Assembly (NCBI GenBank): GCA_964463155.1
Contig: CAYXAY010000022.1
Span: 1 to 9,798, forward strand
Length of the DNA: 9,798 nucleotides
DNA from: an uncultured archaeon
Lineage (GTDB): Archaea; Iainarchaeota; Iainarchaeia; Iainarchaeales; CSSED10-239
Direction: 5' to 3'
Every line of letters starts with the position of its first letter. Position 1 is the stretch's first letter. The translations under genes were made by a program, and so were the position numbers. The notes under the pieces were generated by a model that did no database searches, had not been told where the DNA came from, and saw only the letters and a program-made list of their open reading frames with translations. Below, one piece after another: positions 1 to 9,759 of the stretch.

Positions 1-842
1 GTTCTAGATTATAGGTTAATACTTTTAGGATAACCTGCTTTTGCTGGTTATCCTTTGTTGTTGCAGTTACAAATCCGCCGGTTGTTCGCTTTATTGCAGA
101 GATTACTGATTCAACAACCGATCTTTTATTATAAGATTTAGTTCTAAATCTCCTCATTGCTTTTATTCTGTTATCAGACACCGTCTGATAACTCGGAAGT
201 TGCCTAAATGGGATATGCACAGCAATATTGTTGTCCCAACAATCTTCTCGCAACTCTCTAGAATCATAACCCTTGTCTGCTAAAGCACGAACAATATTGT
301 GTTTTAGTTTGTCAAGCAGGGGAATAAATGATTGGGTATCATTTTTACGATATGGGTTAACTATTGTGTTTAGTACTAGTTTTGTGTTGATATTAACGAT
401 AATGCTAGTTTGTGTAAAGTTTTTATATGATGGTCTAATTTCACATCTATTCAGATAGTAACCTGTAGGATTAACATTTGTAAATCCGGTGGGATCAACA
501 GCAACAACCATGTTTTTGCTGTTGATTAACTTATGGCAAGCCATTACTAGTTTTTGTAAAATGTCTTTACTTATTCTGCTTACACCCTTTTGCAGAGTTG
601 TGAAGTGTGGTAGTTTATGGATACCAAGCAATCTTAAAACATTTATGTCGTTTAACAATTCCGTTAAACGACGAAAGAAAAGTTGTGCCTTTCTTTTAAA
701 ATCAACAAATATACATAATAAAGTTATTGTAAAGCTTGTTAGAGTACTTAGAAAAATGAAAAGGTAACCTAACTTCACCAAAAACGCGTTCAACTTGCTT
801 ATAGAAACTATTAAAAGATATTGGTTGTAATATATTAATCAT
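1..842 (-). mobile_element. IS4/IS5-superfamily DDE transposase gene. The 3' end runs off the left edge, and the N-terminal 46 codons are in a different frame from the catalytic body (apparent +1 shift near 700-715).
   Basis: My own minus-strand translation; not in the ORF track because the frame has no stop inside the window. Frame A: ATG at 842..840, MINILQPISFNSFYKQVERVFGEVRLPFHFSKYSNKLYNNFIMYIC, stop at 702..704. Frame B is open from about 709 down to base 2: FVDFKRKAQLFFRRLTELLNDINVLRLLGIHKLPHFTTLQKGVSRI...VVAVDPTGF...LADKGYDS...YNKRSVVESVISAIKR...LKVLTYNLE. The DDE triad is visible: D codon 494..496, D codon 275..277, E codon 110..112, with K/R 7-8 residues after the E. This pattern is typical of IS4/IS5-type transposases. 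Confidence 0.8.
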
Positions 843-850
843 GAAAGATC

Positions 851-884
851 AATAATATATATGTCGCAAGACATATATATTATT
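851..884. repeat. Perfect palindrome or hairpin: 15-bp stem aataatatatatgtc, 4-nt loop gcaa, then gacatatatattatt. It lies 9 nt upstream of the transposase ATG.
   Basis: Read directly from the sequence. The two arms are exact reverse complements. Function unknown (IS-end structure, transposase promoter/operator, or terminator of the upstream ATPase gene). Confidence 0.85.
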
Positions 885-906
885 TATGTTACAAATAAGG
901 AGTTAG

Positions 907-924
907 AGGGTTTCTACAAACCCT
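907..924. repeat. Second small hairpin: agggttt / ctac / aaaccct.
   Basis: A 7-bp perfect stem seen directly. It sits between the ATPase stop (966) and the transposase start (842). Candidate IS terminus or terminator; it cannot be assigned without the other IS end. Confidence 0.5.
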
Positions 925-965
925 AAATGTCCGAGTTTTTGTGCAATAATGTTTGCATTTTATGA

Positions 966-2213
966 TTATATAAAATCTCTCCAAACTAAATAGTATTTTA
1001 TTAAATTAATATTTTCTTTATTTGCATCAAAGTTTATTATTGATCCATCTCTTATAATTAAATATTTTTTGTATAATTTAAGTTTCTGAACTTGCTTTAA
1101 TTTAAAGTTATTAATGTCTTGTAAGGTGATTTGATTTCTGTATTTTACTTCAACACCAATTTTTTTAGAAGACTTACTATCGTGCCAAATAAAATCTATT
1201 TCATTTACGCCTCTATTATCCCAAAAATATTCTGCATTTATTTGAAAAGCAACATCTGTTTCTATAAGTTTGCTTTCATTAGGAGAATCATCTATAAAAT
1301 AAATTAATGTTGTACAAAAGGGATAAAATTTTTTAGATTTTTGTTCGGTTTTTCTTGCATTATTTGAAAAATGATATATCTTTCTTATTAGACCACTATT
1401 ACACAAATACGCAAGGTATTTAGTAATATCTTTCCTATTTGTGCCCAATTCTTTTGATAGGTCAGTATTATTTATTATTTGCCCTGGATCTTTTGAAATT
1501 ATTCTAAATATACTGTATAGTATTTCTGTATTTACATTTTTTACATATTTTTCAGAATCTTCATATATTACTTTTTTAATGATATTTAACATATATTGTT
1601 TTGTATCTATAGAATAATCTAATGCTAATTCAGGATATTGTCTTTTTAAGTAACTTTTATAGTGATTTAAAAAAACATCATCTATTTTATTATCTATTAC
1701 TGTTGCATTATTTGAAAAAAACAAATATTCTTTGAAATTTAATGGACCAATAAAATATTCAAATATTCTCCCCGCAAGAGATTCTTTTTTACTTGATCTT
1801 AAAGTAGACCCACTAACCACAATCTTTATATTTATATAATTATCATAAATTATCTTTATTTTTTCTTGCCAATTGTCAAGTTTTTGAATCTCATCAAAAA
1901 ACAAATAAACTTTTCCTCCATTTAATGATTTATTTCTAATAATTTCATATTCTTTAATTAGTTTAAATATATCTTCTTTAAAATCATCAAATGAAAAATA
2001 TAATATATCTTCTGGAGCTACATTATTATCTATCAAGTTTTTTATTAATTGCTTAATCAAAACAGATTTACCAACTCTTCTTGGACCTTCAATAGATAAT
2101 ATAAACTTATTTTCGATTGCGTTTTCAAGAATCGTGTAAATATCTCTTTTTATTGGATACTCTTTTAATTCTCCTCGCCATTGTTTGTTTTGAAAAAATA
2201 TCATTTCTTTCAT
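966..2213 (-). CDS. AAA+ ATPase of the AAA_14 + DUF4143 type (COG1373-like), with a central wHTH-like segment and a C-terminal PD-(D/E)xK-like motif.
   Basis: 415-aa ORF with ATG start and TAA stop. Walker A is GPRRVGKS (DNA 2064..2087) and Walker B-like is VYLFFDEIQ. The segment TDLSKELGTNRKDITKYLAYLCNSGLIRKI looks like a wHTH. The C-terminal NEIDFIWHD...IGVEVKY fits a D...E-x-K nuclease-fold signature. As far as I recall, DUF4143 belongs to the PD-(D/E)xK clan. Confidence 0.85.
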   Translation of the reverse strand: MKEMIFFQNKQWRGELKEYPIKRDIYTILENAIENKFILSIEGPRRVGKSVLIKQLIKNLIDNNVAPEDILYFSFDDFKEDIFKLIKEYEIIRNKSLNGGKVYLFFDEIQKLDNWQEKIKIIYDNYINIKIVVSGSTLRSSKKESLAGRIFEYFIGPLNFKEYLFFSNNATVIDNKIDDVFLNHYKSYLKRQYPELALDYSIDTKQYMLNIIKKVIYEDSEKYVKNVNTEILYSIFRIISKDPGQIINNTDLSKELGTNRKDITKYLAYLCNSGLIRKIYHFSNNARKTEQKSKKFYPFCTTLIYFIDDSPNESKLIETDVAFQINAEYFWDNRGVNEIDFIWHDSKSSKKIGVEVKYRNQITLQDINNFKLKQVQKLKLYKKYLIIRDGSIINFDANKENINLIKYYLVWRDFI

Positions 2214-2352
2214 TCATTATCACTTAAATATTATATATTACGAAACATTTATAAACCGTTGCCAAACTTTCCACTATTTTGGTATAGCGTAGTTCCTAAA
2301 TGCCACCCATTTTGGCACAGGCCAGAACCAAACATTCTACTCTTTCTGTGTA

Positions 2353-2910
2353 TTATTTCTTTTTTGTTTGATATTTTATTTGTTGCTTCTTTGCTTTCTC
2401 ACACAATTTTATTATCTTCTTGTCTGTAAATGGATTAATTGCACGTATACCGGGGATCTTGTTGAAGTCTTTTGTGTTTTCTGTATAGATTAGATGAATG
2501 TTGTTATCAAGCATTGTTTGTGCTAAGAGGGCATCAAAGAAATGAACGCCTGTTAAATAGGATAGATCTACGGCTTGCATAATTGTATCAGAAGTATAGG
2601 ACAAAATGGTAAATAAATTTGAAATATTTTTTAAACGATTGTTTAATTCTGTCGGATTATCAAAACATTTTAATTTATTTTTGGTAACATTTACAAATTC
2701 AACAAGATTTTGAATACTTATATATCCATATTTTAGATTGCCTTCTGAAAGTAAATTAAAATAATTTCGTATCTTTTCTGACTGGTCTTTGGTGTTTACA
2801 TTTGTATAAACTGTTACAAATATATTTGTGTCTATTAGATAAGATTCTTGAGAATCGAAATTCAATTTATCATAATTTAAATATAAATTTTCTGTAGTCA
2901 TTTGCGTCAC
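2353..2910 (-). CDS. vapC: PIN-domain protein, VapC-like toxin, with a Lys-rich C-terminal tail.
   Basis: 185-aa ORF. PIN acidic signature: YLIDTNIF near the N-terminus, FFDALLAQTML, and IYTENTKDF near the C-terminus. The listed start at 2910 is GTG; an ATG at 2901 (MTTENLY...) is an equally plausible start. It lies 3 nt downstream of the RHH gene on the same strand. Confidence 0.75.
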   Translation of the reverse strand: MTQMTTENLYLNYDKLNFDSQESYLIDTNIFVTVYTNVNTKDQSEKIRNYFNLLSEGNLKYGYISIQNLVEFVNVTKNKLKCFDNPTELNNRLKNISNLFTILSYTSDTIMQAVDLSYLTGVHFFDALLAQTMLDNNIHLIYTENTKDFNKIPGIRAINPFTDKKIIKLCEKAKKQQIKYQTKKK

Positions 2911-2913
2911 ATT

Positions 2914-3153
2914 TTATCTTTCATATATCTCTGCTCTAGTCTTAGGCATTTTCCCGTTTTTTCCGACCTTTAAAGGATTAGCCATCAAATATTTTAAATG
3001 CTTAATTGCGTCTAATCTTTTATTTTCTTTTTCAGATATGGTTTCAACAATTGTTTTACTTATAGCGTTTTTCCTGTCACCATACTTGGCTTTTGCCATT
3101 TCTCTTAAAAGCTTTTCAGATTTGTCATCCATTGATATTGTTATTACTCCCAT
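2914..3153 (-). CDS. vapB: Small ribbon-helix-helix (CopG/VapB-like) antitoxin candidate.
   Basis: 79-aa ORF with ATG start. The N-terminal GVITISMDDKSEKLLREMAK fits a beta-strand plus helix RHH start. It lies immediately upstream of the PIN gene. GAGGTG lies 7 nt upstream of the ATG. Confidence 0.65.
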   Translation of the reverse strand: MGVITISMDDKSEKLLREMAKAKYGDRKNAISKTIVETISEKENKRLDAIKHLKYLMANPLKVGKNGKMPKTRAEIYER

Positions 3154-3341: not shown

Positions 3342-3373
3342 AAAAAAATCAAAATTAAACCAAAAAATAAAAA
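3342..3373 (-). terminator. Oligo-T tracts (T5, T6, T7 on the minus strand) downstream of the pilin-like gene.
   Basis: Plus-strand A-runs at 3369..3373, 3362..3367 and 3342..3348 lie 15-46 nt after the stop at 3388. Archaeal RNA polymerase terminates at oligo-T stretches. Confidence 0.45.
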
Positions 3374-3387
3374 GAAGAAAAACAACC

Positions 3388-3894
3388 TCAATTGACTGTG
3401 CAGTTGTTTAATATTATTGACTCTTTAGGGCATGTTCCATTAGTTAGAATCATATGATATATGCTGTTTGGATTTAATGTGGTTAAAAGATTTTCATCTC
3501 CTATTGTGTATGTAAAATTAGCGTCAGTAGAAAGATTAGTCATTTCTCCCTTGCTTACTACCTTTTCAAATCTCCCCGCAACTACTAAGTCTTCTTCACT
3601 ACCATTCTTTCCTTGTATTGTCAGTACAAGATTAAATACTCTCAAATTAGAATCATTTCTAAAAACAAGACTTACCTTGTTTCCAGAAGAACTATAAATA
3701 TTACAAGAATCAACAATAAACTTAGCATCCATACAAGAAAGATCACTTGCCTGCTTTAATTCATCTGTTGCCTGGTCCATTCTTTCCTTTGAAGAATTTT
3801 TAAGCCACGCAAAGAAGATTCCTGCTAAAATCACGGTCACAACAATGATTAATGTAACAACAATTACCTCTGATGCCCCTTTTTGTGTATTCAT
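3388..3894 (-). CDS. Secreted or surface protein with an archaeal class III (type IV prepilin-like) signal peptide; pilin-like.
   Basis: 168 aa. The N-terminus MNTQKG/ASEVIVVTLIIVVTVILAGIFFAW has a short charged head, a K-G-A motif and a hydrophobic helix, as in PibD/FlaK-type substrates. The mature part has 4 Cys and 7 N-x-S/T sequons (NSS, NDS, NGS, NLS, NFT, NGT, NCT). Its ATG overlaps the antiporter TGA (ATGA at 3891..3894). Confidence 0.6.
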   Translation of the reverse strand: MNTQKGASEVIVVTLIIVVTVILAGIFFAWLKNSSKERMDQATDELKQASDLSCMDAKFIVDSCNIYSSSGNKVSLVFRNDSNLRVFNLVLTIQGKNGSEEDLVVAGRFEKVVSKGEMTNLSTDANFTYTIGDENLLTTLNPNSIYHMILTNGTCPKESIILNNCTVN

Positions 3895-5144
3895 TTTTTA
3901 CCACCACTTGCCTTTATATTGCTTGTTGATGCTGGCGGATCCTTTTCCCTTTCAACAATTAAGAAATAAACAGTGGTTGAAAGATTAGTTATAAGTATTA
4001 CCAAAAAGGCAATAGCAATAATCTTTTCGGTGAATATGTTGATTAAGCCAAGCCCTATTGGATAGGTTGCAAGAACCGCTGAAGCAAGCCCCCTAGAATG
4101 CAAAGCCACCACAAAAGCCCTATCTTTTTTCTTAAGAATCTTAGAAAACAATAATTGTGTTGAAACCGCCCTTAATATCAATATCAAACTTACTAATGCC
4201 AAAGTTATCAAAATAACATCCAATTTCAATAACATCTTTATATCAATGATTATTCCAAGATAAACAAAAAAGAACGTTTTAATAAGTAGGGAAATTTCTC
4301 TTTGAAAATTTGCAATGCCTTCCCCTAAAGTGTATTCCTTCATCTTGAATGTGTTTAAAAGGCTTGTAGAATTGCCTAAGACTAATCCAAACACAAGAAC
4401 GCAGAATGCGCCATTGCCGCCTAGATATTCCGCTAGAACATACAAAACAAACAAGAAAGCCAAAGTCAAGAAATAATCAAACTCCTTTGCTTCTGTTTGG
4501 TCTCTTAAGATTCTTATCCAGAATAATCCGCCAATCACTCCAATAACAGAAGCAATTGCAAATGCCAAGAATATTGTCTGTGCAATGCTTGTGGTGTTTA
4601 TTGCCTGTGATATTATTAATCCTGCTATTGTGATTGTTGCTACAACACAAAATATATCAGTCATTGCTGATTCTAATGTTAATATTGTCTTTGTCTTATT
4701 ACTTGCGCTTGATTTTGTAATTAAGGGAATAACTATTGCAGAGCTTGTCCCCCCAACAATAACTCCAGCCATCAGACCATAAAGCCATTCAAAGCCAAAA
4801 ATAAAATGTAAAGCTGCGCCACAAGCAAAAGCAGTAACAACAAAAACAATAATTGTATATAAAAATGAATTTTTTATCTCAGTTAATACTTTTCTAAAAT
4901 TAAGATATAACCCACCATCAAATAACAATACAATCAAGGCAATCGTTGCAAAAACGGGCGCAAGTCCTCTCAAAATCTCAATAATAGACACTGGAATTAC
5001 ATTAAATATAGGACCAAACAACAGTCCAACAATTATTAAAATTAGTATATCTGAAATCTTTGTCTTTTTAAAAAATTGGTTTCCAAAAAAGCCAAGTAGA
5101 AATATCGCTGCCAAAAGTAACAATGATAATAAGGTGGTATTCAT
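3891..5144 (-). CDS. Monovalent cation:proton antiporter (Na+/H+ exchanger family, CPA-type).
   Basis: 417 aa and polytopic (about 11-13 hydrophobic helices). The N-terminus LLLLAAIFLLGFFGNQFFKKTKISDILILIIVGLLFGP is typical of Na_H_Exchanger/Kef-type transporters. There is no SD. The AT-rich TATA-like stretch at 5153..5178 is consistent with a leaderless transcript. Confidence 0.85.
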   Translation of the reverse strand: MNTTLLSLLLLAAIFLLGFFGNQFFKKTKISDILILIIVGLLFGPIFNVIPVSIIEILRGLAPVFATIALIVLLFDGGLYLNFRKVLTEIKNSFLYTIIVFVVTAFACGAALHFIFGFEWLYGLMAGVIVGGTSSAIVIPLITKSSASNKTKTILTLESAMTDIFCVVATITIAGLIISQAINTTSIAQTIFLAFAIASVIGVIGGLFWIRILRDQTEAKEFDYFLTLAFLFVLYVLAEYLGGNGAFCVLVFGLVLGNSTSLLNTFKMKEYTLGEGIANFQREISLLIKTFFFVYLGIIIDIKMLLKLDVILITLALVSLILILRAVSTQLLFSKILKKKDRAFVVALHSRGLASAVLATYPIGLGLINIFTEKIIAIAFLVILITNLSTTVYFLIVEREKDPPASTSNIKASGGKK

Positions 5145-5209
5145 ATGTTTCGTTTTTTATTTTATTAAAATATATATTGTGAATTATTTTATAAACTTAA
5201 CTAAAAATA

Positions 5210-5251
5210 AATAATATAGACTAATAACATAATAATATAGACTAATAACAT
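5210..5251 (+). repeat. Perfect 21-bp tandem direct duplication (aataatatagactaataacat x2) in the divergent intergenic region, ending 21 nt before the DAC gene ATG.
   Basis: Copy 1 is 5210..5230 and copy 2 is 5231..5251, identical base for base. Each copy contains a TATA-like ataatata. Confidence 0.9.
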
Positions 5252-5271
5252 AAATTCACGGATAAGTGGTT

Positions 5272-5978
5272 ATGGGAAAAAACAAAAATTTTAATAAGAA
5301 GGTAATAGCAATTGTCACACAAATAGTCAATGGAATGGCAAACAAGAAAAAAGGTTCTTTTTTTATAATCACAAAATCATTTCTGACAAATATGAAAGAC
5401 TTTATCCTGATCTTTTTTCTAAACAAAATGTAAGCATATTCAAAAAGGAAACACAAACTCTTCTTATTGCTCTTCTAGAGGTTGATGGGGCAATTGTTAT
5501 TGATAACCACGGCCACATAGTTGACTATGGCGTCAAAGTAAAAAAAACAAAAATACTTTTCGGACATGGAACAAGACATTCTGCTGCTCGTGGAATCTCC
5601 TGTGTAAAAAATGTTCTGTCAATTATATCTTCTGAAGAAGATGGCAAAGTCAGATTATTTAGAAACGGAGAACAGGTTGCAGAGATAAACCCAAAGACTG
5701 GAAAATCCAAGAAATTCTTTGAAAGAATTGGAGAACTATTTTCAAAGTCTGAGCTTCATGTTGCTACTGCTGGCGGTGTTGCCTCACTATTGCTTCGCTT
5801 GAATCCTTTGCTTTCAGGAATTGTCTTTACTGGTTCTTGGGTCGTCACAAAATATGGAATAGTAAGCTTGAAATATTTCTTACATACAGGAAAGCTTACT
5901 ATTGAAAAGAAACATAAAGAAATCAAAAGAAAAATAAAAAAAATACAGAAAAAACATGGCCAGTCAACAAAACAATAG
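5272..5978 (+). pseudogene. DAC (DisA_N) domain protein, a diadenylate cyclase-like c-di-AMP synthase candidate. It is interrupted by a -1 frame change around 5358-5380 (pseudogene or homopolymer sequencing error).
   Basis: My own translation. Frame 1 runs from ATG 5272: MGKNKNFNKKVIAIVTQIVNGMANKKKGSFFIITKS... and stops at 5431. The frame starting at positions divisible by 3 is open 5298..5978 with no ATG/GTG/TTG before 5790, which is why the track shows only 5790..5978. It reads ...ISDKYERLYPDLFSKQNVSIFKKETQTLLIALLEVDGAIVIDNHGHIVDYGVKVKKTKILFGHGTRHSAARGISCVKNVLSIISSEEDGKVRLFRNGEQVAEI.... The DGA motif, the GTRHxAA motif and the SEE(D/T)G segment are DAC-domain hallmarks. The C-terminus has a hydrophobic stretch (VATAGGVASLLLRLNPLLSGIVFTGSWVV) and a Lys-rich tail. 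Confidence 0.75.
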
Positions 5979-6390
5979 CACAACGGAAATTTCAAAAGGA
6001 ATAGTCCAGTCATTTATAAGAATCGCAATGAGAGTTATTCTATTTGGAATTATAATTCCAGGAATAATCTACATTGGCATTAGATTCTTAGAAATTGCTT
6101 TTGGATTTGGCTGGAAAGAACAATTAACTTACCAGTATATGGGTTATATCTATACTGTTGGTTATGCTTTGTTTTTGGTGTATATGGCAATAAGAAACCA
6201 ACTAAGCACAACCTTGTATTATTCAATAGGTTGGATTTTTGGTTTGTTATTAATGTTTAGGCTTGGAATATTTACTACCAGAATGTTTTTTGGTTTTTTG
6301 TTTGTGCCAGTGATATTTGTAATCATTAAGATCTTGTATCTAATTTTTAAAAAAAAGGAAAAAAAAGTTAAAAGAAATTATAGCCCTTAG
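5956..6390 (+). CDS. Small integral membrane protein (about 4 TM helices), function unknown.
   Basis: 144-aa ORF with ATG start. It has four long hydrophobic segments and a KKKEKKVKR tail. It overlaps the DAC gene 3' end by 23 nt, and converges with the repeat-protein gene with a 23-nt overlap. Confidence 0.5.
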   Translation: MASQQNNSTTEISKGIVQSFIRIAMRVILFGIIIPGIIYIGIRFLEIAFGFGWKEQLTYQYMGYIYTVGYALFLVYMAIRNQLSTTLYYSIGWIFGLLLMFRLGIFTTRMFFGFLFVPVIFVIIKILYLIFKKKEKKVKRNYSP

Positions 6391-8326
6391 AGTGAAGTCT
6401 TACATATCTTTGCATTCTTCTTTGGCTTACTCCAAGTTCTGCTAGTTCTTTGTAACCATATCCTGCTTTTATCAATTGCTCTGTGTTATAGCCAGCTTTA
6501 TGTAGTTCTTTTGCAGAAAAGCCAAGTGGCTTTAGTTCTTTAGCTGAATATCTAATCACTCTTAATTGTCTTGCATTTTGTCCTAATTTCCAAACATCTT
6601 TTGCAGAATAACCAGCAAAATATAGTTCTCTTGGTAAAAATCCAACAGCATACAGTTCCTTTGCAGAATAGCCAGCATCTCTTAAAGACGCTGGTGAAAA
6701 ACCAAGTGGCTTTAGGTCTTTAGCAGGATATGCTTTTCTTAAATCATATGCACTATAGCCAGCGTCTCTCATTTCTTTTGCTGTGTAGCCGGCTTTTGCA
6801 AGTTCTTCAACATCAATATCTAGGTCATTCAGTTCTTTTGCTGAATAGCCTGCATCTTTAATCATTTTTAATTCAAAACCCGCAAAATAAAGTTCTCTTG
6901 CAGTAAACCCAAGATTATGGAATTGTCTTGCTGAATAGCCGATACCAAGTAGTTCTTTTGCTGAATAGCCCGCGTCTCTTAATTCATAAAGGTTATAGCC
7001 TGCAAGATGAATCTCCACAGCAGAAAATCCGGCTTTTTTAAGTTCTTTAATTGTACAGCCTTTTGAGATAAATTCTGGTAGTTCACAACCAATAAGTCTT
7101 ATTTCATTTAATGGACAGCCGGCATCCATCAATTGTGAGCAAAAAAGTCCTGCTTTTGATAATTCTTTTGTAGTATAGCCTGCAATATAAAGTTCTGCGG
7201 GAGAATAACCAAAATCCAATAGTTCCTTTGCAGAATAATTAAGATATCTTAGTTCTTCTAGATGGAATTCTTCTTTTTTTTCCTTTTCTGTTAATAGTTC
7301 CCTTAAATCAAATATTTCTTTTAGTTTGTAGCCTGCTTCTTTTAGTTCTTTAATTGAGTATCCTGCTTGGTACATGTCTTTTGCAGAAATGCCAGCAATC
7401 CTAAATTGGTTTGCAGTAACTCCGACTGGTGCTAATTCTTTTATTCTGAATCCTTCTTTTAAAAGGTCTGCAATTGTTATGCCGTCGTCCAACAATTCCT
7501 GTATATTTATTTTTCTTCTGTCAATTAATTCTAAAAGAGTGTGTCCTGCAAGCAATAGTTCGCCTATGGTGTATACTTTTTTTAGGTCTTCTAAAGTATA
7601 TCCTGCATCAAGCAATTGCCTTGCCTTGTAGCCTGCAATCTTTAATTTCTTTACTGGAAAATTGTGTTTGTATAGTTCCTTTGCTGGATATTGGGCATAA
7701 GAAACAACATCTTCGTTAAATTTTGTGTTTAACAGTTCCTTAACAGAATAACCTGTATCTCTTAGTTCCTTAGCAGAATAGCCTGCTCTCTTAAGCTCAA
7801 TCAAAGAAAATTTTGCTTTTTTTAATTCCATTGCTGAAAAGCCTAGAGTAAATAAATATTTTGAACCAAATTTCATTTTCTTTAGTCTTGTAACAGTATA
7901 TTTTGCTTTTTTTAATTTAAAGTGATTGTAACCTAATTGTAATAATTTCTTTGCTGGCGTTTTCTTTTTTAGAAGTTCTGAAATAGTTAATTTCTTCTTT
8001 ATTATTTTCTTTTTTACTGGTTTTGATTTTATTGTTTTTTTCTTTGGTTTAATTAAAGAAAAGCCAAGTTCTTTTAGTTCTGGATTAGTAAAGCCCGCTG
8101 TTTTTAAATCCTTAATTGTGTATTTCATGCCTTCAAAGATTGTGTGGTTTGCCTTTACTTTTTTTAAGTCTTTAGCATATCTTTCTAAACTTATTTTTTT
8201 CTTTTTTAGATGAGAAATATCTATTGGAGAAATTATAAATCTCTTTGGAGAATTAAGCTGTTTATTTAATAATTCAACTACTTCTTTCTTTTTAAGTGTT
8301 TGAGTTATCTTTTTCATATATTTCAC
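6368..8326 (-). CDS. Large tandem-repeat protein: a Lys-rich N-terminal region followed by about 50 in-register decapeptide repeats (x-x-A-G-Y/F-S-A-K-E-L). No family recognised.
   Basis: 652-aa uninterrupted ORF in a region of 30-nt DNA periodicity. There is no signal peptide or TM segment. The listed start at 8326 is GTG, and the ATG at 8317 (MKKITQ...) is a likely alternative. Example run: RDAGYSAKEL LGIGYSARQF HNLGFTAREL YFAGFELKMI KDAGYSAKEL. Confidence 0.8.
   Translation of the reverse strand: MKYMKKITQTLKKKEVVELLNKQLNSPKRFIISPIDISHLKKKKISLERYAKDLKKVKANHTIFEGMKYTIKDLKTAGFTNPELKELGFSLIKPKKKTIKSKPVKKKIIKKKLTISELLKKKTPAKKLLQLGYNHFKLKKAKYTVTRLKKMKFGSKYLFTLGFSAMELKKAKFSLIELKRAGYSAKELRDTGYSVKELLNTKFNEDVVSYAQYPAKELYKHNFPVKKLKIAGYKARQLLDAGYTLEDLKKVYTIGELLLAGHTLLELIDRRKINIQELLDDGITIADLLKEGFRIKELAPVGVTANQFRIAGISAKDMYQAGYSIKELKEAGYKLKEIFDLRELLTEKEKKEEFHLEELRYLNYSAKELLDFGYSPAELYIAGYTTKELSKAGLFCSQLMDAGCPLNEIRLIGCELPEFISKGCTIKELKKAGFSAVEIHLAGYNLYELRDAGYSAKELLGIGYSARQFHNLGFTARELYFAGFELKMIKDAGYSAKELNDLDIDVEELAKAGYTAKEMRDAGYSAYDLRKAYPAKDLKPLGFSPASLRDAGYSAKELYAVGFLPRELYFAGYSAKDVWKLGQNARQLRVIRYSAKELKPLGFSAKELHKAGYNTEQLIKAGYGYKELAELGVSQRRMQRYVRLHSKGYNFF
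6413..7942 (-). repeat. 30-nt periodic coding repeat array (the decapeptide repeats), with some near-identical DNA units.
   Basis: For example, the 20-mer agttcttttgctgaatagcc occurs exactly at 6831..6850 and 6951..6970 (120 nt apart, or 4 units). Related versions occur at about 6654, 6927, 7221 and 7765. The boundaries are approximate. Confidence 0.8.
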
Positions 8327-8857: not shown

Positions 8858-9067
8858 TTATTTTATATAAATAGTTGATGCTTTTTTTAATCTGGTCATT
8901 ATGGCTTTGCCTAACTTGTCTTCGTCAATTCCTTGAGCAATAATTATATCTATTTTGTCTTTATCAAATTCTCTAAAATAAGAAAATAGTTTTTGTGCAT
9001 AGATTTTTGTATCAGAATCTAAATACCTAACATTATTTTCTTTTAAATCAAAACTATAAGAAAGCAT
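8858..9067 (-). CDS. sua5: C-terminal (Sua5-domain) fragment of the threonylcarbamoyl-AMP synthase gene, displaced into another frame.
   Basis: The 69-aa ORF ...YAQKLFSYFREFDKDKIDIIIAQGIDEDKLGKAIMTRLKKAS matches the conserved Sua5 C-terminal end (L..LR.fD....D.I.......GlG.AimnRL.KAa). This frame is open upstream to 9124, so it overlaps the end of the main ORF. Confidence 0.7.
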   Translation of the reverse strand: MLSYSFDLKENNVRYLDSDTKIYAQKLFSYFREFDKDKIDIIIAQGIDEDKLGKAIMTRLKKASTIYIK

Positions 9068-9759
9068 ACCTTTTTTTTCTTTGGATTTTTCTTCTTTATT
9101 AATTCTATTTCTCTCAAGAAATTTCTATTATAGTCAATTAAGATAACTTTTGCTTTTGGGGAATAATGTGTGTATTTCATTCCTGGGGCTTTTGGTTTAT
9201 CTCCATTTTTAGAATTTAAATTAGAAAATTCAACTTCTCCAATAACTTCTTCAATATCTTCTTTAGTAATGTATCCTGGTCGTAATATTGTTGAAGTATT
9301 AGAAGTAAAGTCAATAACTGTTGACTCAAGGTCAACTTTACAACATCCCACATCAATGATCATTGAAATCTTGTTATTAAGATCTTCAATGACATGTTTT
9401 GCTGTTGTTGGGCTTGGTTTTCCTGAAATATTTGCACTTGGTGCAACAATTGGAACTTTTGATTGTTTTATTAATTCTAAAGCAATTTTGTTGTTAGGCA
9501 TTCTTATTGCTACACTGTCCAGTCCTGCTGTAACAATGTCTGAAACAACTTTTTTCTTTTTAAGAACTATTGTTAAAGGTCCAGGCCAAAACTTTTTTGT
9601 TAATTTTTGCGCAGATTTTGGGAAATCTTTTGCAAGTTTTTTAATCTGAGAGATATCAGAAATGTGAGCAATTAATGGATTATCTTGTGGTCTACCTTTA
9701 ACTTTAAATATTTCTGAAACTGCCAAAGGATTAAAAGCATTTGCCCCAAGGCCATAAAC
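9043..9759 (-). CDS. sua5: L-threonylcarbamoyladenylate synthase (Sua5/YrdC/TsaC family), main body. The 5' end is truncated by a fold-back and the 3' end is frameshifted.
   Basis: Reads VYGLGANAFNPLAVSEIFKVKGRPQDNPLIAH...WPGPLTIVL...IRMP...VAPSANISGKPSPTTA...PGMKYTHYSP. The KGRP..NPLI and SAN.SG motifs are family hallmarks. The track start at 9726 is an internal TTG. The frame is open to 9771, but upstream of VYGLG it reads EKKQ instead of the expected PTET. Confidence 0.85.
   Translation of the reverse strand, partial: VYGLGANAFNPLAVSEIFKVKGRPQDNPLIAHISDISQIKKLAKDFPKSAQKLTKKFWPGPLTIVLKKKKVVSDIVTAGLDSVAIRMPNNKIALELIKQSKVPIVAPSANISGKPSPTTAKHVIEDLNNKISMIIDVGCCKVDLESTVIDFTSNTSTILRPGYITKEDIEEVIGEVEFSNLNSKNGDKPKAPGMKYTHYSPKAKVILIDYNRNFLREIELIKKKNPKKKKVCFLIVLI

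What the first reader, a model, noticed from the sequence alone, without database searches (positions are those of the whole stretch)
3388..5144. Type IV pilin-like, Cys- and sequon-rich surface protein translationally coupled to a cation:proton antiporter
The antiporter stop and the downstream gene start overlap as ATGA (3891..3894), and there is no other intergenic space. This implies co-transcription and coupled translation. The downstream protein has a textbook archaeal class III signal peptide (QKG/ASEVIVVTLIIVVTVILAG...), 4 Cys and 7 N-glycosylation sequons. Pilin-like genes normally sit with pilus or archaellum assembly genes (ATPase, platform protein, prepilin peptidase), none of which is present here. 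Pairing with an ion antiporter is unexpected. It could mean a pilin-fold accessory subunit or extracellular cap of the transporter, or just opportunistic gene packing in a compact genome.
Basis: partly seen in the sequence, partly recalled or inferred. Interest (0 to 1): 0.45.

Follow-up and report, generated by a model that had tools for sequence, protein, structure and literature searches.

The report
Archaeal pilin gene packed behind antiporter
A small surface-fibre (type IV pilin-like) gene of an uncultured DPANN archaeon overlaps the end of an ion-antiporter gene by 4 bases, but relatives keep the pilin gene without the antiporter, so the pairing looks like ordinary operon packing in a compact genome.

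Summary
Both genes lie on the minus strand: a CPA1/NhaP-type antiporter (5144..3891) and a 168-aa ORF (3894..3388). They share an ATGA overlap. The ORF has 4 Cys, 7 sequons and a K-G|A-S class III-type N-terminus.

The ORF is a type IV pilin-like protein.
- The AF2 model shows a 50-residue N-terminal helix plus a beta-sandwich.
- The only whole-chain PDB match is an archaeal type IV pilus subunit.
- K(-2), G(-1) and S(+2) are invariant in the close homologues.
- Distant homologues sit beside a prepilin peptidase, a GspE/FlaI-type ATPase and two T2SSF platform genes.

The family is small and found mainly in DPANN MAGs (Iainarchaeota/Diapherotrites-labelled). Its members often carry C-terminal adhesin-like domains.

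Co-transcription with the antiporter is plausible. The tight junction recurs in 7 of 11 related lineages, and one conserved TATA-like element lies upstream.

A functional partnership is not supported.
- Four lineages lack the antiporter at this locus. One of them is nested among antiporter-bearing ones.
- One lineage has two antiporter copies.
- In lineages without the antiporter, the same promoter element sits directly before the pilin gene.
- 19% of same-strand gene pairs in this clade overlap.

Verdict: a new member of a known kind, of low interest.

The parts
3388..3894 (-). 168-aa type IV pilin-like protein of a DPANN-restricted 4-Cys subfamily, short 'bare' form
   Evidence: ORF. AF2 pLDDT is 83.4, with a helix at residues 6-55 and an eight-strand beta domain. 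The only whole-chain Foldseek hit is 8fk7_A, an archaeal type IV pilus subunit. 34 close homologue clusters were found, and 42 representative clusters at E<=1e-10.
3877..3894 (-). Predicted class III signal peptide MNTQKG, with inferred cleavage after G6
   Evidence: K5 (-2), G6 (-1) and S8 (+2) are invariant in 18 homologues. This fits the archaeal rule of a charged residue at -2 and G/A/S at -1 (PMC4371748). A rule-based site was found in 70 of 76 family members. Cleavage itself is inferred, not shown.
3802..3876 (-). Hydrophobic H-domain (aa 7-31), the N-terminal half of the long alpha-1 helix
   Evidence: Hydropathy is 2.5-2.8 over aa 7-31. The model places a helix at residues 6-55. The sub-threshold Pilin_N match covers aa 6-40.
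3391..3729 (-). Beta-sandwich head domain (aa 56-168) with 3 of the 4 invariant Cys (the fourth, C54, lies at the end of the helix), the conserved LTNGTCPK motif and 6 of the 7 sequons
   Evidence: Invariant C54, C64, C155, C165, N80, S82 and N152. pLDDT is above 90 for residues 70-150. The disulfide pairing 54-64 and 155-165 is inferred from spacing only.
3891..3894 (-). ATGA start/stop overlap between the antiporter and the pilin-like gene
   Evidence: The equivalent junction is -4 nt in L002, L012, L013 and L029, -1 nt in L007 and +4 nt in L003.
3900..3905 (-). Shine-Dalgarno-like GGTGGT, 5 nt upstream of the pilin ATG, inside the antiporter's last codons
   Evidence: Similar GGTG/AGGT/GGAG motifs lie 5-8 nt before the starts in L003, L007, L008 and L012 (pilin-like gene) and before the antiporter starts in L002, L003 and L012. 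Function is inferred.
3891..5144 (-). 417-aa CPA1 (NhaP-type) monovalent cation:proton antiporter without a C-terminal regulatory domain
   Evidence: PF00999, E 2.6e-41. Best solved relatives are PaNhaP 4cz8 (E 3e-13) and MjNhaP1. NCBIfam K+/H+ antiporter models match well below their cut-offs.
5182..5204 (-). Conserved promoter-like element TTAGTTAAGTTTATAAAATAATT (TATA-like box at 5187..5195) in the 127-nt DAC-antiporter intergenic region
   Evidence: Nearly the same element precedes the antiporter in L002, L003, L012 and L029. It precedes the first pilin-like gene directly in the antiporter-less L026 and L027, with a looser version in L010 and only a weak likeness in L008. Promoter activity is inferred.
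3342..3386 (-). Four oligo-T runs (T5, T5, T6, T7) immediately after the pilin stop codon, the likely end of the transcription unit
   Evidence: Sequence. That archaeal transcription terminates at oligo-T tracts is general knowledge. It was not tested here.
5272..5978 (+). Divergently oriented diadenylate cyclase (DAC) gene, interrupted by a frameshift near 5375-5385
   Evidence: tblastn with DAC proteins of relatives gives aa 2-39 in one frame (5278..5391) and aa 24-212 in another (5340..5906), at 70-75% identity.

Best explanation
The 168-aa ORF encodes a type IV pilin-like surface protein of an uncultured DPANN archaeon. Related MAGs are labelled Candidatus Diapherotrites or Candidatus Iainarchaeum.

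Inferred mechanism:
- The precursor inserts into the membrane through its N-terminal hydrophobic helix.
- A PibD-type prepilin peptidase, encoded elsewhere, removes MNTQKG after G6.
- The mature protein is a long alpha-1 helix plus an Ig-like beta-sandwich, probably held by two disulfides and N-glycosylated.
- A GspE/FlaI-type ATPase and TadC-like platform proteins, also encoded elsewhere, polymerise it into a pilus or pilus-like fibre.

The window protein is the short, 'bare' form of a modular family. In relatives, 1-3 tandem copies occur. Longer copies use the same module as an N-terminal handle for adhesin-like domains.

The gene is the last cistron of a two-gene transcription unit. That unit starts at a conserved TATA-like element upstream of the antiporter and ends at oligo-T runs after the pilin stop. 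The pilin gene has its own Shine-Dalgarno-like site inside the antiporter's 3' end.

The antiporter is a dispensable, copy-number-variable passenger (0, 1 or 2 copies) between that promoter and the pilin cluster. It is not a structural partner of the pilin. The ATGA overlap reflects genome compaction.

Shown here: gene order, the overlap, family membership by fold, motif and context, and the variable presence of the antiporter. Inferred: cleavage, glycosylation, disulfides, fibre assembly and co-transcription.
For: Pilin identity:
- AF2 model with a helix at 6-55 plus a beta-sandwich, pLDDT 83.4.
- 8fk7_A, the Pyrobaculum calidifontis type IV pilus subunit, is the only full-length Foldseek hit (E 9e-4, TM 0.53 by target length). 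It is also the best sequence hit in the PDB (E 0.04).
- K5, G6 and S8 are invariant and match known processing sites such as KG|QV, RA|VS and KA|IS (PMC4371748).
- 70 of 76 family members pass a rule-based class III test.
- Family members P0062, P0104 and P0108 exceed the Pilin_N gathering score.
- Distant members carry the canonical K-A-[IL]-S-P-I-I motif and keep the 4 Cys.
- Homologue P0209 lies directly after a prepilin peptidase (Arc_PepC_II, 50.6 bits), a GspE/FlaI-type ATPase (2oap, E 1e-32), two T2SSF genes and a DUF192 gene.
- Homologue P0067 lies about 3 kb from a T2SSF gene, alongside two further pilin-like genes.

Operon:
- The same promoter-like element lies before the antiporter in lineages that have it, and before the pilin gene in lineages that lack it.
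- The junction is tight in all 7 antiporter-bearing lineages.

Dispensability of the antiporter:
- It is absent from this locus in L008, L010, L026 and L027.
- L027 nests inside the antiporter-bearing clade.
- L029 has two copies.

Base rate of overlaps: 19% of same-strand gene pairs.

Literature: archaeal pilin genes usually lie outside assembly operons (PMC4858521). DPANN pilins are too divergent for routine detection (PMC6393860).
Against: - The window protein itself scores below the Pilin_N gathering threshold (21.5 against 25.2 bits).
- Structural similarity to solved pilins is modest (TM 0.45-0.53). Most Foldseek hits are generic Fn3-like domains of GH3 enzymes.
- No prepilin peptidase, ATPase or platform gene could be checked in this organism's own genome. 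Only 9.8 kb is available, and the close-clade loci (up to 10 kb either side of the pilin gene) show none.
- JGI annotators named some homologues 'FlaG/FlaF family'. A non-cleaved membrane-anchor role is therefore not excluded.
- The antiporter-pilin junction is kept very tight in 7 of 7 lineages that have the antiporter. This is more regular than the 19% base rate and could reflect selection for co-expression.
Confidence: 0.78

Rival explanations
1. Functional partnership. The pilin-like protein is an accessory subunit, extracellular cap or regulator of the CPA1 antiporter, and translational coupling sets the ratio of the two proteins.
For: The ATGA overlap is real. The antiporter stop and the next pilin-like start lie within -4 to +4 nt in all 7 antiporter-bearing lineages, even though protein identity between lineages is only 50-65%. 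The antiporter has unusual ion-site motifs, GGTSS and ESAMTD, conserved in the clade, so it is not a textbook NhaP.
Against: - Four lineages keep the pilin genes and lose the antiporter, one of them recently.
- One lineage has two antiporters for one pilin.
- The antiporter-adjacent gene is sometimes a 339-538-aa long form with adhesin-like domains rather than the short form.
- Distant family members sit with pilus machinery, never with an antiporter.
- To my knowledge, no CPA1 transporter is known to need a pilin-fold subunit.
- The whole 15-20 kb neighbourhood is collinear in these genomes. Adjacency therefore carries little functional information.
Confidence: 0.05
2. Uncleaved membrane-anchored surface protein. 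The N-terminus acts as a permanent signal-anchor, as described for the archaellum stator proteins ArlF/ArlG (FlaF/FlaG). The Ig-like domain then decorates the cell surface or binds the S-layer instead of forming a fibre.
For: - JGI names several homologues 'FlaG/FlaF family flagellin'.
- Weak NCBIfam ArlF match (E 0.026).
- One family member gives a weak FlaF_Ig-like Pfam match.
- FlaF 4p94 appears at E 7.6 in the PDB sequence search.
- The close clade shows no assembly genes within 10 kb.
Against: - The ArlF score of 14.7 bits is far below the cut-off of 110.
- Invariance of K(-2), G(-1) and S(+2) is what a peptidase recognition site predicts. A plain anchor does not predict it.
- Distant homologues are encoded next to a prepilin peptidase and ATPase, without archaellin (Arch_flagellin) genes.
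- The best structural match is a pilus subunit.
Confidence: 0.12
3. Co-regulated stress and attachment module. The diadenylate cyclase, the antiporter and the pilin cluster share one bidirectional control region, so ion or osmotic state (through c-di-AMP) and surface adhesion are switched together without any physical interaction between the proteins.
For: DAC is divergently adjacent to the antiporter or the pilin gene in every lineage whose upstream flank is available. It shares an intergenic region of 88-191 nt that carries the conserved TATA-like element in most of them. General knowledge: c-di-AMP controls K+ transporters, including cation/proton antiporters, in bacteria.
Against: - The antiporter lacks an RCK_C or other known c-di-AMP-binding domain. 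It is 417 aa with PF00999 only.
- The DAC gene is frameshifted in this window.
- Collinearity of the whole region means conserved adjacency could be purely historical.
- No expression data are available.
Confidence: 0.05

Closest known systems
Archaeal type IV pilins with class III signal peptides (Pfam Pilin_N, PF07790), for example Haloferax volcanii PilA1-6 and the Pyrobaculum calidifontis pilus subunit (PDB 8fk7)
   Same: Short charged N-region, K at -2 and G at -1. A hydrophobic H-domain of about 25 residues forms the start of a long alpha-1 helix, followed by an Ig-like beta-sandwich head. Many N-glycosylation sequons. The gene lies away from the assembly genes, as with pilA1-6. Family members P0062, P0104 and P0108 pass the Pilin_N threshold.
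   Different: The window protein reads S-E-V-I instead of the usual S-P-V-I and falls below the Pfam threshold. The head has four invariant Cys and an LTNGTCPK motif that no Pfam, NCBIfam or PDB-sequence search here accounted for. The family is small and found mainly in DPANN MAGs: 42 representative clusters at E<=1e-10 among 1.84 billion.
Large minor pilins and pilin-adhesin fusions, such as archaeal arCOG02911 (250-550 aa, prone to duplication; Makarova et al. 2016)
   Same: In relatives the same pilin module is duplicated in tandem and extended at the C-terminus by CHB_HEX_C_1/Fn3_assoc, LamG, RCC1, Glug or PT-HINT domains. This matches the pattern described for minor or tip pilins.
   Different: The window copy is the bare 168-aa module. 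Whether short forms are the major subunits and long forms the minor ones is an inference. No homology to arCOG02911 was tested.
Archaellum stator proteins ArlF/ArlG (FlaF/FlaG)
   Same: An N-terminal hydrophobic helix followed by a beta-sandwich domain. Some databases name the homologues this way.
   Different: The NCBIfam ArlF score is far below its cut-off. No archaellum genes are nearby. The conserved peptidase-site residues argue for processing.
NhaP-type CPA1 Na+(K+)/H+ antiporters (PaNhaP 4cz8, MjNhaP1 4czb)
   Same: Full-length alignment over about 390 residues. Conserved positions include the Ser and Asp of the ES..xD motif and the Arg of the RG motif.
   Different: The TM4 'ATDP' motif reads 'GTSS', and the 'ND' motif reads 'TD', in all orthologues of this clade. 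There is no cytoplasmic regulatory domain. Substrate is unknown.

Membership tests
Archaeal type IV pilin-like proteins (class III signal peptide) | Processing motif before the hydrophobic domain: a charged residue at -2, G/A/S at -1, then an uncharged H-domain of about 20 residues near the N-terminus | tested here: met
   K5-G6|A7-S8 is followed by 24 uncharged residues. K5, G6 and S8 are invariant in 18 homologues. 70 of 76 family members pass the rule. Criteria are taken from PMC4371748. FlaFind itself was not available.
Archaeal type IV pilin-like proteins (class III signal peptide) | Pfam Pilin_N (PF07790) score above the gathering threshold | tested here: not met
   The window protein scores 21.5 bits against a threshold of 25.2. 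Only 5 of 22 short family members match at E<0.01, all below threshold. Family member P0062 (26.9 bits) and the next-nearest relatives P0104 (26.8) and P0108 (29.3) do pass.
Archaeal type IV pilin-like proteins (class III signal peptide) | Pilin 'lollipop' fold: a long N-terminal alpha-helix packed against a beta-rich head | tested here: met
   AF2 gives a helix at 6-55 plus eight strands, pLDDT 83.4. 8fk7_A, an archaeal type IV pilus subunit, is the only whole-chain Foldseek match, with modest TM of 0.45/0.53.
Archaeal type IV pilin-like proteins (class III signal peptide) | Genomic link to the assembly machinery (A24 prepilin peptidase, GspE/FlaI ATPase, TadC/T2SSF platform) | tested here: inconclusive
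   Absent from the window and from the close-clade loci, which extend up to 10 kb either side of the pilin gene. Present next to distant homologues P0209 and P0067. The rest of this organism's genome could not be searched.
Archaeal type IV pilin-like proteins (class III signal peptide) | Cleavage by the prepilin peptidase and incorporation into a filament | not testable with these tools
   This needs proteomics or N-terminal sequencing, and filament purification or cryo-EM.
CPA1 / NhaP cation:proton antiporters | Na_H_Exchanger (PF00999) transmembrane domain above the gathering threshold | tested here: met
   142.2 bits against 26.2, covering aa 17-389. PaNhaP and MjNhaP1 are the best PDB relatives.
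CPA1 / NhaP cation:proton antiporters | Canonical ion-binding motifs: T-D in TM4 and N-D in TM5 | tested here: not met
   In the alignment to PaNhaP, GATDPATL corresponds to GGTSSAIV and ESIFND to ESAMTD. The same substitutions occur in five of the six orthologues compared. In L012 only the TM4 motif could be read. The TM5 Asp and the preceding Ser are kept.
   Seven lineages have the antiporter at this locus and four lack it. One loss is nested in the antiporter-bearing clade, and one lineage has two copies. Distant family members have no antiporter neighbour.
ArlF/ArlG (FlaF/FlaG) archaellum stator proteins | NCBIfam ArlF (NF052590) or Pfam FlaF_Ig-like match at the curated cut-off, with an archaellum operon context | tested here: not met
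   ArlF scores 14.7 bits against a cut-off of 110. FlaF_Ig-like matches 1 of 22 members at E 0.007. No archaellum genes occur in any locus.

The most novel reading that the evidence does not exclude
This 4-Cys pilin module may be a DPANN-specific 'handle' for putting interchangeable host-interaction domains on a type IV pilus. The domains seen are CHB_HEX_C_1/Fn3_assoc, LamG, RCC1, Glug and PT-HINT pretoxin. In the window's clade the module would be expressed as one attack-and-attachment operon with giant NlpC/P60 wall hydrolases and, optionally, a non-canonical cation:proton antiporter. The bidirectional promoter would be shared with the c-di-AMP synthase, tying symbiont attachment to ion and osmotic signalling.
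Probability: 0.12. Interest if true: 0.55.

Novelty: new member of a known kind. Interest (0 to 1): 0.2.

Why it matters
The practical value is mainly annotation. A family currently labelled 'hypothetical' or 'FlaG/FlaF' in DPANN MAGs can be called type IV pilin-like. It has a recognisable signature: K-G/A|x-S, four Cys and LTNGTCP.

Type IV pili are prime candidates for how ultrasmall episymbionts hold on to their hosts. The modular long forms and the neighbouring NlpC/P60 giants are therefore reasonable targets for DPANN host-interaction studies.

The antiporter pairing itself teaches a cautionary point. In compact, collinear genomes, start/stop overlaps and conserved adjacency among close relatives are weak evidence of a functional partnership.

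Tried and rejected
- I first concluded from the ORF list that the window had lost the diadenylate cyclase gene. tblastn showed the gene is present but frameshifted, and its long open frame has no start codon, so the ORF lister missed it. The conclusion was withdrawn.
- I first thought direct abutment of the antiporter with a short pilin form was unique to the window. L012 and L029 show the same arrangement. Withdrawn.
- Internal promoter for the pilin gene: a TATA-like AATATAAAGG lies at 3911..3920, but no box is conserved at that position in the other six junctions. There is no support for it, and it was not pursued.
- The metagenome and GTDB genome scans with the family alignment returned few loci, mostly duplicates.
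- Pfam on the short family members gave only sub-threshold Pilin_N and Flp1_like hits.
- The PDB sequence search gave only marginal hits.
- tRNA and Rfam scans of the window found nothing.
- The bacterial sigma-70 promoter and terminator scanner was not used, because the organism is archaeal.
- AlphaFold-Multimer of the pair could not be run. The tool takes single chains only.
Full report
**1. What is in the sequence**

Both genes of the finding lie on the minus strand. A 417-aa ORF runs 5144..3891 and a 168-aa ORF runs 3894..3388. The minus strand reads ...GCAAGTGGTGGTAAAAAATGAATACA. The downstream ATG and the upstream TGA therefore share the four bases 3891..3894.

- The 168-aa protein has Cys at residues 54, 64, 155 and 165.
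- It has seven N-X-S/T sequons. Shuffles of the same sequence average 3.0, and 1.1% of them reach seven.
- It has a single strongly hydrophobic stretch at about residues 7-31, preceded by MNTQKG.
- A Logan assembly of run SRR11582140 (L001) is 100% identical over window 3387..5343, so the junction is not peculiar to one assembly.

**2. The two proteins**

The upstream protein is a cation:proton antiporter.
- Pfam Na_H_Exchanger matches at E 2.6e-41.
- The closest solved relatives are the NhaP-type CPA1 antiporters PaNhaP and MjNhaP1 (E 3e-13 and 2e-11).
- It has no cytoplasmic regulatory domain.
- In the alignment to PaNhaP, 'ATDP' is replaced by 'GTSS' and 'ND' by 'TD'. The same substitutions occur in the orthologues of this clade.

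The downstream protein gives only a sub-threshold Pilin_N match (21.5 against 25.2 bits, aa 6-40) and a weak UpsA match. Several other lines of evidence make the pilin assignment solid.

- The AlphaFold2 model (pLDDT 83.4) has a helix at residues 6-55 followed by an eight-strand beta domain with pLDDT above 90.
- The only whole-chain Foldseek match in the PDB is 8fk7_A, the Pyrobaculum calidifontis archaeal type IV pilus subunit. The remaining hits are generic Fn3-like domains of GH3 enzymes.
- 8fk7 is also the top sequence hit in the PDB, at E 0.04.
- In 18 homologues, K5, G6 and S8 are invariant, as are the four Cys and an LTNGTCPK motif.
- Archaeal prepilin peptidases need G/A/S at -1 and a charged residue at -2 and are lax at +1 and +3. 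Known sites include KG|QV, RA|VS and KA|IS (PMC4371748). K-G|A-S fits this rule.
- A rule-based test finds such a site in 70 of 76 family members. Four of the six failures are N-terminally truncated fragments.

**3. The family**

- A word-indexed search of 5.8 billion proteins finds 34 clusters, all at least 46% identical.
- An exhaustive profile search of 1.84 billion representatives finds 42 at E<=1e-10. The domain is always at the N-terminus.
- Only three of 185,579 GTDB species representatives carry it.
- Named members come from 'Candidatus Diapherotrites archaeon' and 'Candidatus Iainarchaeum sp.' MAGs, that is, DPANN.
- More distant members carry the canonical K-A-[IL]-S-P-I-I pilin motif and keep the four Cys.
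- Member P0062 and the next-nearest relatives P0104 and P0108 exceed the Pilin_N gathering score.
- Many members are long fusions. The pilin module is followed by CHB_HEX_C_1/Fn3_assoc, LamG (up to six copies), RCC1+LamG, Glug or a PT-HINT domain.

**4.

I recovered eleven distinct lineages of the close clade, including the window. The whole neighbourhood is collinear across them: GlmS, DUF5680, (Sua5), a 120-aa TM protein, a decapeptide-repeat protein, a 140-150-aa TM protein and DAC on one side. On the other side are the pilin-like gene(s), often a 290-320-aa protein and 850-1230-aa NlpC/P60 proteins, and then an RHH+PIN pair.

An antiporter lies between DAC and the first pilin-like gene in seven lineages: the window, L002, L003, L007, L012, L013 and L029. 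In all seven, its stop and the next start are -4, -1 or +4 nt apart. L029 has two tandem antiporters. Four lineages (L008, L010, L026, L027) have no antiporter at this locus, and there the pilin-like gene directly follows the DAC intergenic region.

On a tree of the neighbouring repeat protein, L027 nests inside the antiporter-bearing clade, with 90% identity to L003. At least one loss is therefore recent.

The gene next to the antiporter is a short form in the window, L012 and L029. It is a 339-538-aa long form in L002, L003, L007 and L013.

Two more distant homologues show what the family normally keeps company with.
- P0209 lies directly after a prepilin peptidase (Arc_PepC_II, 50.6 bits), a GspE/FlaI-type ATPase (2oap, E 1e-32), two T2SSF platform genes and a DUF192 gene.
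- It is followed by a 1113-aa LamG protein.
- P0067 lies about 3 kb from a T2SSF gene, alongside two further pilin-like genes.
- Neither locus has an antiporter.

**5. Transcription and translation signals**

The DAC-antiporter intergenic region of the window carries TTAGTTAAGTTTATAAAATAATT (5182..5204, minus strand). Nearly the same element precedes the antiporter in L002, L003, L012 and L029. It precedes the pilin-like gene itself in the antiporter-less L026 and L027, with a looser version in L010 and only a weak likeness in L008.

The simplest reading is one promoter for the unit, with the antiporter as an optional first cistron.

- A Shine-Dalgarno-like GGTGGT lies 5 nt before the pilin ATG. 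Similar motifs precede most starts examined here.
- Four oligo-T runs follow the pilin stop (3342..3386).
- A TATA-like box inside the antiporter's 3' end is not conserved in the other junctions.
- Co-transcription is thus plausible but inferred.

The overlap itself is not special. Of 88 same-strand neighbouring gene pairs in these loci, 17 overlap, 9 of them by exactly 4 nt, and 48% are overlapping or at most 15 nt apart.

**6. Interpretation**

The 168-aa ORF is a type IV pilin-like protein, the bare form of a modular DPANN pilin family. It most likely works like other archaeal pilins, through prepilin-peptidase cleavage after G6 and assembly through its hydrophobic helix into a fibre. A glycosylated, disulfide-stabilised Ig-like head would be exposed.

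Long paralogues in relatives probably act as adhesin-bearing minor or tip subunits. These steps are inferred from homology. None was shown here.

The antiporter is probably co-transcribed, but it is dispensable and variable in copy number. The 'accessory subunit or cap' idea is not supported (about 5%). An uncleaved ArlF/ArlG-like anchor role remains a minor alternative (about 12%). A purely regulatory link with the divergent c-di-AMP synthase is speculative (about 5%).

Most archaeal pilin genes lie outside type IV pilus operons (PMC4858521), and DPANN pilins are known to be too divergent for routine detection (PMC6393860).

**7. Verdict**

This is a real feature, correctly described, and an ordinary one. 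It is a new member of a known kind (an archaeal type IV pilin-like protein) packed behind an antiporter in a compact genome.

Interest is low (0.2). The modular pilin family and its NlpC/P60 neighbours are the more promising lead for DPANN host-interaction biology.

Noticed in passing
window 5272..5978 (+): The diadenylate cyclase (c-di-AMP synthase) gene is divergent from the antiporter and split by a frameshift near 5375-5385. The N-terminal 38 aa are in one frame and the remaining ~190 aa in another, at 70-75% identity to intact DAC genes of relatives. The Logan contig L001 ends at 5343, just before the frameshift. This is either an assembly indel or a pseudogene.
   Followed up: partly
window 8858..9726 (-): The Sua5/TsaC (threonylcarbamoyl-AMP synthase) gene is also split by a frameshift near 9070-9097 when compared with the intact 335-aa gene in L008. 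Two frameshifts in 9.8 kb suggest imperfect assembly.
   Followed up: partly
window 6368..8326 (-): A 652-aa protein consists almost entirely of PF25296 'Decapeptide' repeats (E 1e-157, 12 stretches). It is 62-74% identical across all relatives. It overlaps, convergently by 23 nt, a conserved 144-aa multi-TM protein at 5956..6390 (+). Function is unknown.
   Followed up: no
window 3891..5144 (-); L002, L003, L012, L029: The CPA1 antiporter has non-canonical ion-site motifs (GGTSS for ATDP, ESAMTD for ES..ND), conserved in the orthologues of the clade. The gene is present in 0, 1 or 2 copies at this locus in different lineages.
   Followed up: partly
window 966..3153 (-): An RHH-like 79-aa gene and a PIN-domain 185-aa gene form a toxin-antitoxin pair, followed by an AAA_14/DUF4143 ATPase. 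The ATPase is 98% identical to the L008 copy, although neighbouring genes are only 55-75% identical. This hints at recent mobility of the ATPase gene.
   Followed up: no
L003 11452..17290; L007 4053..11235; L010 7862..16955; L012 11991..15446: In relatives, the pilin genes are followed by a 290-320-aa protein with a Sec signal and a C-terminal TM anchor, and by 850-1230-aa Sec-signal proteins with NlpC/P60 cell-wall hydrolase domains. All of these are absent from the window. They are possible host-wall-attacking factors of an episymbiont.
   Followed up: no
protein P0063 (484 aa, family member): The same pilin module is fused to a PT-HINT (pretoxin HINT) domain (E 3e-15), a hallmark of polymorphic toxin systems. 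A pilin-borne toxin cassette would be unusual.
   Followed up: no
window 1..965: About 1 kb at the window's start has no convincing ORF, tRNA or Rfam match, and its GC content (29-35%) is slightly higher than its surroundings. It was not examined further.
   Followed up: no
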